Source: Escherichia coli (lineage in GTDB: Bacteria; Pseudomonadota; Gammaproteobacteria; Enterobacterales; Enterobacteriaceae). From it: a stretch of DNA of 64,000 bases. This document shows positions 11,911 through 14,247 of the stretch, piece by piece (positions within the stretch are counted from its first letter, which is position 1; each line of letters begins with the position of its first letter). The notes below the pieces were generated by a model that worked only from the letters and a program-made list of their open reading frames with translations, was not told where the DNA came from and searched no databases. The translations under genes and the position numbers were made by a program. The stretch is taken from the NCBI RefSeq assembly GCF_965641715.1, contig NZ_OZ282453.1; one strand, 5' to 3'.

Positions 11911-12171
11911 ATGTTCCGTTGTCCGCTTTGTGGCGCATCTGCCCGTATCCGCACCAGTCGTCCGGAAAATGATTCAAACACCGTGCGGCAAAAGTATTAC
12001 CAGTGTAACAATCTGGAATGCGGCGTATGCTTCTCAACACTGGAAGCTTTCCATAAATTCACATCGAAACACGCCTCCGGCGTTCACTCTTCAGAAGGTA
12101 TCCCGTGGCATGAGCTGCCAGCTTCACACAGGGGAAACAATCAGATGAGTTTGCCTTTATCTCAGAATTAA
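11911..12171 (+). CDS. ogr: Ogr/Delta-family zinc-finger late transcription activator
   Basis: 86 aa, CPLC...X...CNNLEC four-cysteine pattern, N-terminus MFRCPLCG like P2 Ogr, directly after D. Confidence 0.8.
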   Translation: MFRCPLCGASARIRTSRPENDSNTVRQKYYQCNNLECGVCFSTLEAFHKFTSKHASGVHSSEGIPWHELPASHRGNNQMSLPLSQN

Positions 12172-12259
12172 CAGGCAGAATTGCCGGAGTAACAAAAAAG
12201 CGATAGATTACGCGCGGGTGCCTTTCGGCTGATGGTCGGAGGGAATACCCGAAGGCCAG

Positions 12260-12496
12260 ATGTGGAAAGGCCCCGGAAAACATTTCTGTTTAACCGAGGC
12301 CCTAACACTTCTTACCTTCGCAAGTAGAAGGTTAGCGCCTCTCCTCTCAGGAGACAAGCGTTATGACGCAAATTCCGTTAAAAACCCTGTTACTTTGCAT
12401 AACTGCGGTAGCGATAATCTGGATCCTCCACACATCACCGTGCGAGTTACGATTCAGGTTTGCTGGCACGGAAATTGCGGCATTCTTACTATGTAA
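12260..12496 (+). CDS. mok-like overlapping reading frame of the hok locus
   Basis: 78-codon frame starts 103 nt upstream of hok and overlaps it out of frame, as mok does in hok/sok loci; GAAGG precedes the ATG. Confidence 0.4.
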   Translation: MWKGPGKHFCLTEALTLLTFASRRLAPLLSGDKRYDANSVKNPVTLHNCGSDNLDPPHITVRVTIQVCWHGNCGILTM

Positions 12497-12503
12497 TAAG
12501 TAA
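12363..12503 (+). CDS. Hok/Gef-family type I toxin (small membrane peptide)
   Basis: 46 aa MTQIPLKTLLLCITAVAIIWILHTSPCELRFRFAGTEIAAFLLCNK: hydrophobic helix followed by C-E-L-R-F-R and E-I-A-A-F motifs. AGGAG lies 9 nt upstream. Below the 60-aa cutoff of the ORF track. Confidence 0.75.
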   Translation: MTQIPLKTLLLCITAVAIIWILHTSPCELRFRFAGTEIAAFLLCNK

Positions 12504-12590
12504 GATAACCGCGACGGGGGAGTAATCCCCCGTCAATCGGTTGCTAAGGTTGGTCGAAACGGCATCCTATCTCACAGACATGAACAACAA

Positions 12591-12622
12591 ACCCGCAGCG
12601 TAAAAACTGCGGGTTTTCTTTT
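12591..12622 (+). terminator. Intrinsic terminator downstream of hok
   Basis: acccgcag-cgtaaaaa-ctgcgggt hairpin followed by tttctttttg. Confidence 0.6.
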
Positions 12623-12670
12623 TGCTACCCTCACAAATGAGGGCACCATACATAAGCAATAGGCATAACA

Positions 12671-12710
12671 GATCGATGCAATAAATCCGATCGATAAAAA
12701 CGATCGATTT
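12671..12710. promoter_or_regulatory. Cluster of three GATCGAT (Dam-site) repeats upstream of com
   Basis: GATCGAT at 12671, 12690 and 12703, 40-80 bp upstream of the com start. Resembles the three-GATC regulatory region of the Mu mom operon. Confidence 0.4.
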
Positions 12711-12752
12711 GTTATCATATCGGCAGCAGTAACCACACAAGAGGTGCCGCAA

Positions 12753-12950
12753 ATGACGCAAAATGTACGATGCAAAAATTGCAACAAACTACTTGCCCGC
12801 GCCTCATTTCACTACATTGAAATAAAATGTCCGCGCTGCAAAACACTTAACCAGATAACGAGAGCCATCGAGCACCCCACACACATGAGGAGTTATGACC
12901 GTGGGGATCGCAATCCAGCACCAACCAGCACATACGCCAGAACACACTAA
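12753..12950 (+). CDS. com: Com-like zinc-finger translational regulator (Mu Com family)
   Basis: 65 aa, MTQNVRCKNCNKLLARASFHYIEIKCPRCK..., matching the Mu Com CKNCNKLL...IEI(R/K)CPRCK pattern. AAGAGG RBS; 3' end overlaps the methyltransferase start. Confidence 0.7.
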   Translation: MTQNVRCKNCNKLLARASFHYIEIKCPRCKTLNQITRAIEHPTHMRSYDRGDRNPAPTSTYARTH

Positions 12951-13701
12951 GGTTTATCAGACTGACAATGTCACGCTCTGTTGTGGGAATGCACTGGAAA
13001 TATTGCCGCTGATTGAGCCAGAAAGCATTGATGCCTTAATCACTGACCCGCCTTACAGTTCGGGTGCGACACACAAGGCCGGACGCACCAATCAGGGCAG
13101 CCATGCAAAATATCTGAACGGCGAGAACCTTCACCGCTTTGATGGGTTCGCGGGTGAAAACATGGACGCCCGTTCGTGGGCTTACTGGACACAATTATGG
13201 ATGGCACAGGCACACCGCGCAGTCAGGCCAGGCGGTTATGCCATGGTATTTACTGACTGGCGACAACTACCAGCTTTAACCGATGCGTTTCAGGCCAGTG
13301 GCTTTACATGGCGCGGCATCATTGCGTGGAACAAGGGGAGGGGGTCACGAACACCACATACCGGGTATTTCCGGCATCAGTGCGAATACATCGTCTGGGG
13401 CAGCAAAGGCCATTTAGATAAATCGCCTTCGGGGCCGTTCGACGGCTGCATGACGTACCCGGTTATCCCGTCAAAGAAAATGCACCCGACCGGAAAACCA
13501 GAAGAACTAATGGCGGAACTGGTCAGGACTGTGAATAGTGGCGGAACAGTCCTTGATCCTTTTATGGGGTCAGGGACAACGGGTGTGGCTGCACTGAAAG
13601 CAGGGCGAAAATTTATTGGTATAGAAACCAGTGATCATTATTTTGAGGTAGCAGCGCAGCGGCTTCGGGGGACTATTACCACAACCATTTCGGCTACATA
13701 A
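12895..13701 (+). CDS. DNA methyltransferase, beta-class (N6-adenine or N4-cytosine), no restriction partner in window
   Basis: 268 aa with motif order DPPY before FMGSGTT. No restriction endonuclease nearby. Start overlaps the end of com by 56 nt. Confidence 0.85.
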   Translation: MTVGIAIQHQPAHTPEHTKVYQTDNVTLCCGNALEILPLIEPESIDALITDPPYSSGATHKAGRTNQGSHAKYLNGENLHRFDGFAGENMDARSWAYWTQLWMAQAHRAVRPGGYAMVFTDWRQLPALTDAFQASGFTWRGIIAWNKGRGSRTPHTGYFRHQCEYIVWGSKGHLDKSPSGPFDGCMTYPVIPSKKMHPTGKPEELMAELVRTVNSGGTVLDPFMGSGTTGVAALKAGRKFIGIETSDHYFEVAAQRLRGTITTTISAT

Positions 13702-13704
13702 GAC

Positions 13705-13730
13705 AAAGCCCGCATTTTTTGCGGGCTTGT
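13705..13730 (+). terminator. Hairpin after the methyltransferase gene
   Basis: aaagcccgc-atttttt-gcgggctt stem-loop four bases after the stop codon. Confidence 0.45.
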
Positions 13731-13803
13731 ATATCATTACTGATGTGGACAGTTTGTGGATGTTTATAAGAAATAAGCTAATAGAAACAATTTGTTAGCT
13801 TTA

Positions 13804-13828
13804 CAAAAAACGCGCCCGAAGGCGCGTT
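13804..13828 (-). terminator. raiA intrinsic terminator
   Basis: Minus strand reads gcgccttcgggcgcg followed by TTTTTTGT, just downstream of the raiA stop. Confidence 0.8.
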
Positions 13829-13851
13829 GGCGATACACTCAATATAAAGGA

Positions 13852-14247
<396 letters not shown>

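What the first reader, a model, noticed from the sequence alone, without database searches (positions are those of the whole stretch)
12660..13701. Mu mom-like control architecture driving a DNA methyltransferase: GATC cluster, Com zinc finger, overlapping start
A 65-aa Com-like zinc finger (CKNCNKLL...IEIKCPRCK) ends 56 nt inside a beta-class methyltransferase (DPPY then FMGSGTT). Three GATCGAT motifs sit 40-80 bp upstream of com. In phage Mu, three GATC sites control mom transcription through Dam methylation and OxyR, and Com activates mom translation by opening a hairpin over the start codon. Here the same regulatory logic appears attached to a methyltransferase with no restriction partner, suggesting a late-expressed anti-restriction or epigenetic function gated by host Dam status.
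Basis: partly seen in the sequence, partly recalled or inferred. Interest (0 to 1): 0.6.

Follow-up and report, generated by a model that had tools for sequence, protein, structure and literature searches.

The report
Mu-style gate on a prophage methyltransferase
A P2-like prophage of E. coli carries a small cassette that wires phage Mu's safety lock for its DNA-modification gene (a methylation-sensitive operator, the Com zinc finger and a hairpin over the start codon) to a stand-alone adenine methyltransferase; the parts are real and conserved, but the design principle is already known.

Summary
Window 12659-13701 is a self-contained cassette at the ogr/att end of a P88-like (P2-like) prophage.

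- **Operator.** It has three Dam sites with exactly Mu's spacing (18 and 13 bp). It holds the best OxyR-consensus matches in the whole 64 kb and closely resembles the E. coli agn43 OxyR/Dam switch.
- **Com.** The 65-aa protein matches Pfam PF10122 and is 60% identical to Mu Com.
- **Com RNA site.** The window's only match to the SELEX-defined motif, GAGAGCCAUCGAGCACC, lies at 12860-12876.
- **Hairpin.** It abuts a hairpin (12875-12906) homologous to Mu's translation-inhibition structure. The hairpin buries the Shine-Dalgarno sequence, ATG 12895 and GUG 12901.
- **Start codon.** Comparison with relatives makes GUG 12901 the likely methyltransferase start.
- **Cargo.** It is an intact, compact beta-class DPPY methyltransferase under purifying selection, with no nuclease partner.

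Two things differ from Mu. There is no C-activator box and no Ogr box, and the operator overlaps an extended -10 promoter. "Late" expression is therefore unproven, and agn43-like ON/OFF switching in lysogens is possible.

About 3% of complete E. coli genomes carry the cassette. Related Com genes gate Mom, Dam-type, C5 and beta-class enzymes. Com-gated methyltransferases are already published, so this is a new variant of a known kind.

The parts
12589..12616 (+). Intrinsic terminator that closes the upstream hok/sok-like module and insulates the cassette from ogr read-through
   Evidence: Stem of 10 pairs followed by a T-run. It is conserved in phages P88 and Chuche.
12659..12717 (.). OxyR-like operator with three Dam sites (GATC at 12671-74, 12689-92 and 12702-05), preceded by ATAG at 12659-62
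   Evidence: GATC spacing of 18 and 13 bp equals that at Mu Pmom. The three best matches to the 37-bp OxyR consensus in the whole window (15, 15 and 14 of 20) start at 12659, 12668 and 12672; Mu mom scores 13 and agn43 scores 14. It aligns with the Mu and K-12 agn43 operators. Identity to relatives is 78-82% where the sequence just upstream is 16-32% identical.
12691..12718 (+). Predicted sigma-70 promoter: -35 TCGATA, 16-bp spacer, TG at 12710-11 and -10 TATCAT at 12713-18. It overlaps GATC sites 2 and 3
   Evidence: It is the only promoter-like site found in 12150-13900. A -10-like hexamer sits 11 nt after the last GATC in three lineages: TATCAT, TATACT and TATAAT. The transcription start has not been mapped.
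12753..12950 (+). com: a 65-aa Cys4 zinc-finger translational activator, with Shine-Dalgarno AGAGG at 12740-44
   Evidence: Pfam PF10122 E=1.1e-11, phrog_13819, 60% identity to Mu Com and dN/dS of 0.22-0.27.
12859..12876 (+). Com-binding RNA element: a short hairpin (C12859-G12870, 6-nt loop GAGCCA) carrying the bipartite motif GAGAGCC-AUC-GAGCACC
   Evidence: It is the only match in the window to the SELEX consensus GAGNNCC-N3-GAGNNCC, where 0.09 are expected by chance. The motif comes from PMC6483171. The hairpin appears in the fold of the whole leader and com RNA. The element GA(R)nGCC-NNN-GAGCAYCCCAC is conserved in the enterobacterial lineages examined, with a few A-to-C variants.
12875..12906 (+). 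Translation-inhibition hairpin. Outer stem CCCCAC (12875-80) pairs with GUGGGG (12901-06). Inner stem 12884-88 pairs with 12893-97. The Shine-Dalgarno core GGAG (12889-92) is in the apical loop
   Evidence: The 49-nt segment folds at -15.8 kcal/mol with z=-2.45 and the hairpin persists in the 236-nt context. It is homologous to Mu's CCCAC/GUGGG hairpin and to those of com-mom and com-dcm loci.
12901..13701 (+). Orphan beta-class DNA methyltransferase with motif IV DPPY before motif I FMGSGTT. The likely start is GUG 12901; the alternative is in-frame ATG 12895
   Evidence: Pfam PF01555. The AlphaFold model has pLDDT 88 and matches CcrM, M1.HpyAVI and M.BceJIV among others. dN/dS is 0.10-0.14. 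No nuclease gene lies nearby.
13706..13728 (.). GC-rich hairpin just after the methyltransferase stop codon, a probable terminator at the prophage/att end
   Evidence: The scan scored it on the minus strand; on the plus strand the T-run is weak. It is conserved in Chuche and L010, after which the sequences diverge.

Best explanation
This is a portable cassette descended from the phage Mu com-mom regulatory unit. Its cargo has been exchanged for an orphan beta-class, probably N6-adenine, DNA methyltransferase. It sits as an optional insert between ogr/hok and the attachment site of a P88-like (P2-like) prophage.

**Proposed mechanism.**
1. Transcription starts at an activator-independent extended -10 promoter (about 12691-12718).
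2. That promoter is overlapped by an OxyR operator carrying three Dam sites. Unmethylated DNA binds OxyR and is silent. Dam-methylated DNA excludes OxyR and is transcribed.
3. com is translated first. The methyltransferase cannot initiate because its Shine-Dalgarno sequence, ATG 12895 and GUG 12901 are paired in the hairpin at 12875-12906.
4. Com accumulates and binds the GAGAGCC-AUC-GAGCACC element. That element overlaps the 5' arm of the hairpin, so binding opens it and allows initiation at GUG 12901.
5. The enzyme methylates DNA. The most likely benefit is protection of phage progeny from restriction in new hosts.

**Shown by sequence or comparison:** the anatomy of all parts, their homology to Mu and agn43, their conservation, and the integrity of both genes.

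**Inferred:** OxyR binding, the position of the transcription start, Com dependence, the enzyme's activity and target, and the timing of expression.
For: - **Com identity.**
- **Mu-identical GATC spacing.** The operator aligns with the Mu mom and K-12 agn43 operators.
- **OxyR consensus.** The best matches in the whole window fall on the operator and score at or above the two experimentally validated sites.
- **Operator retention.** It is kept in Yersinia (72% identical enzyme), in a 75% identical relative and in lambdoid com cassettes, while flanking DNA is unrelated.
- **Com RNA motif.** It is unique in the window and lies directly 5' of the hairpin.
- **Hairpin.** It is homologous to Mu's, and annotated cargo starts in related loci fall exactly on its GUG. 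The fold is stable and persists in context.
- **Start codon.** L032 and the lambdoid loci lack the ATG, so GUG is the only universal start.
- **Cargo integrity.** Catalytic motifs, a confident model and dN/dS of 0.10-0.14.
- **Independent unit.** Terminators flank both sides. P88, 95% identical over the adjacent 12.6 kb, lacks the cassette.
- **Prevalence.** Present at 95% identity or more in 171 of 5426 complete E. coli genomes.
- **Modularity.** Com homologues precede Mom, C5, Dam-family and beta-class enzymes.
Against: - No experiment exists for this locus, and every mechanistic step is by analogy.
- The hairpin's outer stem never varies among enterobacterial relatives, so there is no covariation support. 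Those loci were also found with a pattern that required the stem.
- The -35 element is weak and the transcription start is unmapped. One lambdoid lineage places its -10-like hexamer elsewhere.
- Variants L029-L031 have deleted the operator yet keep both genes intact and under purifying selection, so Dam/OxyR control is dispensable.
- Close relatives of the enzyme work without com. One sits directly after ogr in another P2-like prophage and others sit in Mu-like late operons. The enzyme is therefore not necessarily toxic.
- Ribosomes translating com pass through the hairpin, so coupling in cis could contribute.
- The methylation target is unknown.
Confidence: 0.72

Rival explanations
1. The cassette is a phase-variable epigenetic switch in lysogens rather than a late anti-restriction function. 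The operator overlaps an activator-independent promoter, so competition between Dam and OxyR after replication would give heritable ON and OFF states, as at agn43 or P22 gtr. A subpopulation of lysogens would then carry extra adenine methylation.
For: - The operator core is nearly identical to agn43: CGATCG-N7-CGATCGAT with a third GATC 18-19 bp upstream.
- P22 gtr also uses GATC pairs 13 bp apart in OxyR half-sites that overlap its promoter (PMC2909390).
- There is no C box or Ogr box.
- The unit has its own promoter and terminators at the prophage end, as a lysogenic-conversion insert would.
Against: - Whether even Mu mom phase-varies is unknown (PMC2909390).
- No expression data exist for this locus.
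- Prophage methyltransferases in E. coli methylome studies are typically silent in culture (PMC5778455; PMC4659465).
- The promoter may be too weak to act without a phage factor.
Confidence: 0.25
2. The methyltransferase is switched on only in cis. Ribosomes translating com run through the hairpin (com ends at 12950), melt it and allow re-initiation at GUG 12901. The Com protein itself would not be needed.
For: The hairpin lies wholly inside the com reading frame, and the two genes overlap by 50 nt.
Against: - Com protein and its SELEX-defined RNA site are both conserved, and the site is the only match in the window.
- The zinc-finger residues are invariant and com has dN/dS of 0.22-0.27. Neither would be needed for simple coupling.
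Confidence: 0.1
3. The GATCGAT repeats act without OxyR. They could be the enzyme's own target for autoregulation, or a direct Dam or SeqA effect on RNA polymerase binding.
For: - GATC sites 2 and 3 lie in the predicted -35 element and spacer.
- The conserved unit is the 7-mer GATCGAT, which also contains ATCGAT and TCGA.
Against: - The same operator precedes unrelated cargo (Mom, a C5 methyltransferase) and the host gene agn43, so it cannot be specific to this enzyme.
- ATCGAT approximates both OxyR half-site arms, which explains the 7-mer (my inference from the comparison).
- The upstream ATAG-N8-GATC is shared with Mu and agn43.
Confidence: 0.12
4. The cassette is an inert relic of a recombination between Mu-like and P2-like phages.
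For: - The neighbouring prophage shows some decay in a sister strain, where the tape-measure gene is frameshifted (UMNF18).
- A few copies are truncated (L016, L026).
Against: - The ORFs are intact in nearly all copies, and dN/dS is 0.10-0.27.
- The isolated phage Chuche carries the cassette.
- The regulatory elements are conserved across genera.
Confidence: 0.03

Closest known systems
Phage Mu com-mom operon (Dam/OxyR-controlled Pmom, Com translational activator, translation-inhibition hairpin)
   Same: - Com is 60% identical.
- The three GATC sites have identical 18/13-bp spacing.
- Both have a Com RNA motif and a short 6-nt-loop hairpin next to a CCCAC/GUGGG hairpin with a GUG start.
- The com stop codon lies 47-49 nt after the GUG in both (read).
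   Different: - The cargo is a beta-class methyltransferase, not Mom.
- The C-activator site (TTAT-N6-ATAA) and Mu's weak, T6-spacer promoter are absent. The operator abuts an extended -10 promoter and lies 27 nt closer to com.
- The host element is a P2-like prophage, not a transposable phage.
com plus non-specific adenine methyltransferases Hia5, Hin1523 and Nma1821 in Mu-like prophages of Haemophilus and Neisseria (PMC3299994)
   Same: A Com homologue sits upstream of a methyltransferase that occupies the mom position. Com control is proposed to keep the enzyme silent.
   Different: - Those enzymes are alpha-class, with FxGxG before DPPY (PMC5778455). This one is beta-class.
- They lie in Mu-like prophages.
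- The distant Com loci I examined, which carry Dam-family cargo, mostly lack the GATC operator.
E. coli agn43 (flu) Dam/OxyR phase-variation switch, and P22 gtr
   Same: - The operator core CGATCG-N7-CGATCGAT, a third GATC 18-19 bp upstream and a preceding ATAG are shared.
- The OxyR site overlaps or abuts the core promoter without a dedicated activator.
- P22 gtr also has GATC pairs 13 bp apart.
   Different: - agn43 and gtr control surface structures and have no Com or hairpin layer.
- In agn43 the GATC sites lie downstream of the apparent promoter; this is my reading of the sequence.
M.EcoGI / M.EcoGII, prophage-borne non-specific beta-class adenine methyltransferases of E. coli (PMC5778455)
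   Same: They are beta-class, prophage-encoded and silent in the lysogen.
   Different: M.EcoGII is 349 aa and is a different protein. That paper does not mention a zinc-finger or Com protein or an upstream regulator. The specificity of the enzyme studied here is unknown.

Membership tests
Mu-type com-gated DNA-modification operon | Com protein: a small Cys4 zinc ribbon (PF10122) | tested here: met
   Pfam E=1.1e-11. The four cysteines are invariant in the alignment. It is 60% identical to Mu Com.
Mu-type com-gated DNA-modification operon | com lies immediately upstream of the cargo gene and overlaps it on one transcript | tested here: met
   The overlap is 50 nt from GUG 12901, or 56 nt from ATG 12895. 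No terminator lies between the genes.
Mu-type com-gated DNA-modification operon | The cargo's Shine-Dalgarno sequence and GUG start are sequestered in a stem-loop | tested here: met
   The hairpin at 12875-12906 folds at -15.8 kcal/mol with z=-2.45. It is homologous to Mu's and persists in the 236-nt context. The stem never varies, so covariation says nothing either way.
Mu-type com-gated DNA-modification operon | A Com recognition motif (CC-N2-3-GAG; bipartite GAGNNCC-N2-3-GAGNNCC) in a short hairpin 5' of the stem-loop | tested here: met
   There is a single match in the window, at 12860-12876, against 0.09 expected by chance. The motif comes from PMC6483171. The hairpin has a 6-nt loop.
Mu-type com-gated DNA-modification operon | Three GATC sites within an OxyR-binding region upstream | tested here: met
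   The spacing of 18 and 13 bp equals Mu's. The OxyR consensus match is 15 of 20, the best in the window. This is met by sequence only; binding was not tested.
Mu-type com-gated DNA-modification operon | A promoter that depends on the late activator C, with a C-binding site | tested here: not met
   Mu's TTAT-gcccca-ATAA element and its T6 spacer have no counterpart here. No Ogr-type TGT-N12-ACA box is present either.
Mu-type com-gated DNA-modification operon | The cargo is Mom | tested here: not met
   The cargo matches PF01555. Related Com loci whose cargo BLASTs to Mom form separate groups.
Mu-type com-gated DNA-modification operon | Cargo translation requires Com protein, and transcription requires Dam or the absence of OxyR | not testable with these tools
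   This needs reporter fusions and gel-shift assays.
Beta-class N6-adenine/N4-cytosine DNA methyltransferases (PF01555) | Motif IV (D/S)PPY lies N-terminal to motif I FxGxG, on a Rossmann-type fold | tested here: met
   DPPY lies at residues 49-52 and FMGSGTT from residue 221. The model has pLDDT 88. Foldseek probability is 1.00 to CcrM, M1.HpyAVI, M.BceJIV, M.MboIIA and M.RsrI.
Beta-class N6-adenine/N4-cytosine DNA methyltransferases (PF01555) | Methyl transfer to DNA at a defined target | not testable with these tools
   DPPY favours adenine-N6 from general knowledge. No characterised close homologue was found.
Restriction-modification system | An adjacent restriction endonuclease gene | tested here: not met
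   The neighbours are ogr, a hok/sok-like module, terminators and the host gene raiA. PADLOC hits are methyltransferase models only.
Dam/OxyR phase-variation switches (agn43, gtr) | An OxyR site containing several GATC sites overlaps the core promoter or transcription start | tested here: inconclusive
   The operator at 12659-12717 overlaps the predicted -35 and -10 elements, but the transcription start is not mapped.
Dam/OxyR phase-variation switches (agn43, gtr) | Heritable ON and OFF states with differential GATC methylation | not testable with these tools
   This needs single-cell reporters or methylation data from lysogens.

The most novel reading that the evidence does not exclude
In lysogens the operator, fused to an activator-independent promoter, behaves like agn43. 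Dam and OxyR would then set heritable ON and OFF states of an orphan adenine methyltransferase. About 3% of E. coli strains would carry a prophage-borne, phase-variable methylome switch, with Com acting as a threshold device. If the enzyme also methylates the adenine in GATC or ATCGAT, it would lock its own operator ON.
Probability: 0.18. Interest if true: 0.7.

Novelty: new variant of a known kind. Interest (0 to 1): 0.4.

Why it matters
- **Modularity.** The Mu com/hairpin/OxyR-Dam lock is a mobile regulatory module. It moves between Mu-like, lambdoid and P2-like phages and accepts at least four unrelated DNA-modifying cargos.
- **Annotation.** The methyltransferase most likely starts at GUG 12901, not the annotated ATG. 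The database name 'Com family DNA-binding transcriptional regulator' conflicts with Com's documented role as an RNA-binding translational activator.
- **Methylome studies.** A common but uncharacterised E. coli prophage methyltransferase is probably silent in standard experiments. It might protect phage DNA, or switch on in only a fraction of cells.
- **Testability.** The re-wired promoter gives a simple system for asking whether Mu-type Dam/OxyR control phase-varies. The P22 gtr paper (PMC2909390) describes that question as still open for mom.

Tried and rejected
- **P2 late promoter.** I searched for an Ogr box (TGT-N12-ACA) upstream of com and found none.
- **Mu C-binding site.** It is absent by direct comparison.
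- **Covariation in the hairpin.** The outer stem is invariant in enterobacterial loci, and those loci were selected with a pattern that required it, so this is uninformative.
- **GATC clustering alone.** It is only the fifth tightest triple in the window, so I dropped it as an argument.
- **Solved structure of Com.** The sequence search gave only marginal hits to eS27 zinc ribbons.
- **Methylation specificity.**
  - Homologue names are generic across more than 7,500 hits.
  - PDB sequence relatives have different, unrelated specificities.
  - The structure search shows only the common beta-class core.
  - No specificity can be assigned.
- **M.EcoGII.** It is a 349-aa protein, so it is not this enzyme.
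- **Literature.** Five searches found no paper describing this P2-like com-methyltransferase cassette. E. coli methylome papers did not mention it.
- **Rfam.** No family covers the com/hairpin RNA; the only hit was the neighbouring sok-like RNA.
- **Other.** One dN/dS comparison (L032) was misaligned by indels and was discarded.
Full report
**Observation.**
- GATCGAT occurs at 12671, 12689 and 12702. These are three of nine copies in the 64-kb window, all within 38 bp.
- An ORF from ATG 12753 to 12950 encodes a 65-aa protein with two CxxC pairs.
  - It matches Pfam Zn_ribbon_Com at E=1.1e-11.
  - It matches PHROG 'gpCom control of modification'.
  - It is 60% identical to Mu Com over 42 residues.
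- It overlaps an ORF ending at 13701 that matches Pfam N6_N4_Mtase, with DPPY ahead of FMGSGTT. That motif order defines the beta class.
- A triple of GATC sites is not exceptional in this window on its own; it is the fifth tightest. The weight of the argument therefore rests on homology and conservation.

**Context.** The cassette sits at the end of a P2-like prophage.
- The gene order is tail genes, gpD, ogr (11911-12171), a hok/sok-like module, a strong terminator (12589-12616), com, the methyltransferase and a GC-rich hairpin. The host genes raiA, bamD, rluD and yfiH follow.
- The 12.6 kb to the left is 95% identical to phage P88. P88 has a different small ORF where the cassette would be.
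- The isolated phage Chuche carries the cassette between its hok-like gene and integrase.
- The unit is therefore an optional insert with its own promoter region and terminators.
- No nuclease gene is adjacent.
- The cassette occurs at 95% identity or more in 171 of 5426 complete E. coli genomes. NCBI's pipeline annotates it there as 'Com family DNA-binding transcriptional regulator' plus 'DNA-methyltransferase'.

**The transcriptional operator is homologous to known Dam/OxyR operators.**
- In Mu, the three GATC sites upstream of com are 18 and 13 bp apart. Here the spacing is identical.
- The aligned block ATAG-N8-GATCGAT-N11-CGATCG-N7-CGATCGAT is shared with Mu and with the agn43 (flu) regulatory region of E. 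coli K-12. In agn43 the spacing is 19 and 13 bp and the core reads TATCGATCGTTTATATCGATCGATAAG.
- I scanned the whole window with the 37-bp OxyR consensus ATAGnTnnnAnCTAT-N7-ATAGnTnnnAnCTAT.
  - The three best matches (15, 15 and 14 of 20 specified positions) all fall in 12659-12708.
  - By the same measure the Mu mom site scores 13 and the agn43 site scores 14.
- ATCGAT approximates both arms of an OxyR half-site. This explains why the conserved unit is GATCGAT rather than just GATC (my inference).
- The operator is retained in diverged relatives.
  - A Yersinia kristensenii prophage, whose enzyme is 72% identical, keeps all three sites.
  - So does a 75% identical relative.
  - Lambdoid com cassettes keep the 13-bp pair at the same -64/-51 offset from the com ATG.
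  - Operator identity to these relatives is 78-82%. The DNA just upstream is 16-32% identical, and com third codon positions are 63-69% identical.

**Difference from Mu at the promoter.**
- Mu's C-activator site and T6-spacer promoter have no counterpart here. The operator lies 27 nt closer to com.
- The only promoter-like site in the region is TCGATA-16-TATCAT, preceded by TG, at 12691-12718. It overlaps GATC sites 2 and 3.
- A -10-like hexamer sits exactly 11 nt after the last GATC in three lineages: TATCAT, TATACT and TATAAT.
- No Ogr-type box is present.
- OxyR bound here would occlude the promoter directly, as at agn43 or the repressing site of P22 gtr.
- 'Late' expression is therefore not demonstrated, and ON/OFF switching in lysogens is a live alternative.
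- The gtr paper notes that it is unknown whether Mu mom itself phase-varies.
- Variants L029-L031 have lost the operator through a deletion between the first and third repeats, which creates TAGGCA-16-TATCAT. Both genes stay intact in them, with methyltransferase dN/dS of 0.10-0.13, so the Dam/OxyR layer is dispensable.

**The translational gate.**
- A published SELEX and probing study defined the Com target as CC-N2-3-GAG, with a bipartite form GAGNNCC-N2-3-GAGNNCC.
[quoted passage not shown] - The window has exactly one match to GAGNNCC-N3-GAGNNCC: GAGAGCCATCGAGCACC at 12860-12876 on the plus strand. Only 0.09 matches are expected by chance.
- It forms a 3-bp hairpin with a 6-nt loop. Its second half overlaps the 5' arm of a hairpin at 12875-12906.
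  - The outer stem is CCCCAC paired with GUGGGG.
  - An inner stem pairs ATG 12895-97.
  - The Shine-Dalgarno core GGAG lies in the apical loop.
- The 49-nt segment folds at -15.8 kcal/mol with z=-2.45. The hairpin persists when the whole leader and com RNA is folded.
- The same CCCAC...GUGGG hairpin is present in Mu and in E. coli com-mom and com-dcm loci, where the annotated cargo starts fall exactly on that GUG.
- The element GA(R)nGCC-NNN-GAGCAYCCCAC is conserved, with rare A-to-C variants, across 36 distinct sequences from all enterobacterial lineages.
- ATG 12895 is absent from L032 and from the lambdoid loci. The Shine-Dalgarno spacing is 8 nt to the GUG and 2 nt to the ATG. GUG 12901 is therefore the probable start.
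- The stem never varies, so covariation gives no independent support.
- Ribosomes translating com also cross the hairpin, so a contribution from coupling in cis cannot be excluded.

**The cargo.**
- The enzyme has all the invariant residues of a very large family.
- The model is confident, with pLDDT 88. It superposes on compact beta-class enzymes: the CcrM catalytic domain, M1.HpyAVI, M.BceJIV, M.MboIIA and M.RsrI.
- dN/dS is 0.10-0.14.
- DPPY suggests adenine-N6 from general knowledge. The target sequence cannot be inferred.
- Close relatives occur without com. One follows ogr directly in another P2-like prophage (81% identity). Others sit inside late operons of Mu-like prophages (62% and 55% identity).
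- The enzyme is therefore a common phage orphan methyltransferase that has been placed under Com control in this lineage. It is not obligatorily toxic.

**Modularity of the Com gate.**
- Among 80 viral-contig loci encoding Com relatives, plus E. coli loci, the gene after com is one of four kinds:
  - Mom;
  - a C5 cytosine methyltransferase (TIGR00675);
  - a Dam-family alpha-class methyltransferase (TIGR00571);
  - a beta-class methyltransferase.
- One Com lineage (MPHNVRC...) carries three of these with the same operator and hairpin. This points to cargo exchange at the hairpin junction.
- The GATC operator is largely absent from the distant Com loci, which lack the enterobacterial-type hairpin and operator.

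**Comparison with what is known.**
- Com-gated methyltransferases that replace mom were described for Mu-like prophages of Haemophilus and Neisseria, with Com control proposed (PMC3299994).
  - Those enzymes are alpha-class (PMC5778455).
- The present case differs in three ways: the enzyme class, the host phage type, and the loss of the C-dependent promoter in favour of a direct fusion of operator and promoter.
- I found no paper on this cassette.
- It is therefore a new variant of a known kind. It is solidly real, moderately interesting and readily testable.

Noticed in passing
window 12216-12503: A hok/sok-like toxin-antitoxin module lies between ogr and the cassette. The Rfam sok match (12216-12374) scores 47 bits, below the gathering score of 59. 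A 46-aa Hok/Gef (MokW-like) ORF lies at 12363-12503.
   Followed up: partly
L029-L031, about 2440-2500 (IMG/VR contigs): These cassette variants have a deletion between the first and third GATCGAT repeats that removes the whole operator, leaving CATAACAAATCAATTTGTTATCAT. This creates a better -35 element (TAGGCA-16-TATCAT). com and the methyltransferase stay intact.
   Followed up: partly
L097 2151-3295 (E. coli GCA_018118545.1): An 81% identical methyltransferase sits 20 nt after an extended 109-aa ogr-like gene in another P2-like prophage. It has no com, and its N-terminus is replaced.
   Followed up: partly
L050-L057 and L095: One lambdoid-type Com lineage (MPHNVRC...) carries Mom, a C5 methyltransferase or a beta-class methyltransferase behind the same operator and hairpin. 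This suggests the hairpin junction is a recombination point for cargo exchange.
   Followed up: partly
L076, L077 and L086, about 2600-2670: Distant Com loci with Dam-family cargo show a different hairpin. GCGUC pairs with GACGC (or GCGC) around the AAGGA(G) Shine-Dalgarno sequence just before the AUG. The 5' arm could alternatively pair upstream with ACGC. I read this by eye and did not test it.
   Followed up: no
window 12753-12950 and database annotation (L001): NCBI's pipeline names the protein 'Com family DNA-binding transcriptional regulator'. The literature read here describes Com as an RNA-binding translational activator.
   Followed up: yes
L007 (plasmid pCREC455-3, NZ_CP183151.1): The same prophage end, with com and the methyltransferase, lies on a 129-kb plasmid record. 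An extra TM2-domain ORF is inserted there between hok and com.
   Followed up: no
window 13664-13860, compared with L002 and L010: Similarity to phage Chuche and many viral contigs breaks about 12 codons before the methyltransferase stop. It resumes at the terminator hairpin and is then lost. The enzyme's C-terminus therefore differs between phage lineages, probably near the attachment-site or integrase module boundary.
   Followed up: partly
L001 7948-9285 (E. coli UMNF18): The 99.9% identical sister locus has an IS4 insertion between raiA and bamD that is absent from the window. Its tape-measure gene is frameshifted.
   Followed up: no
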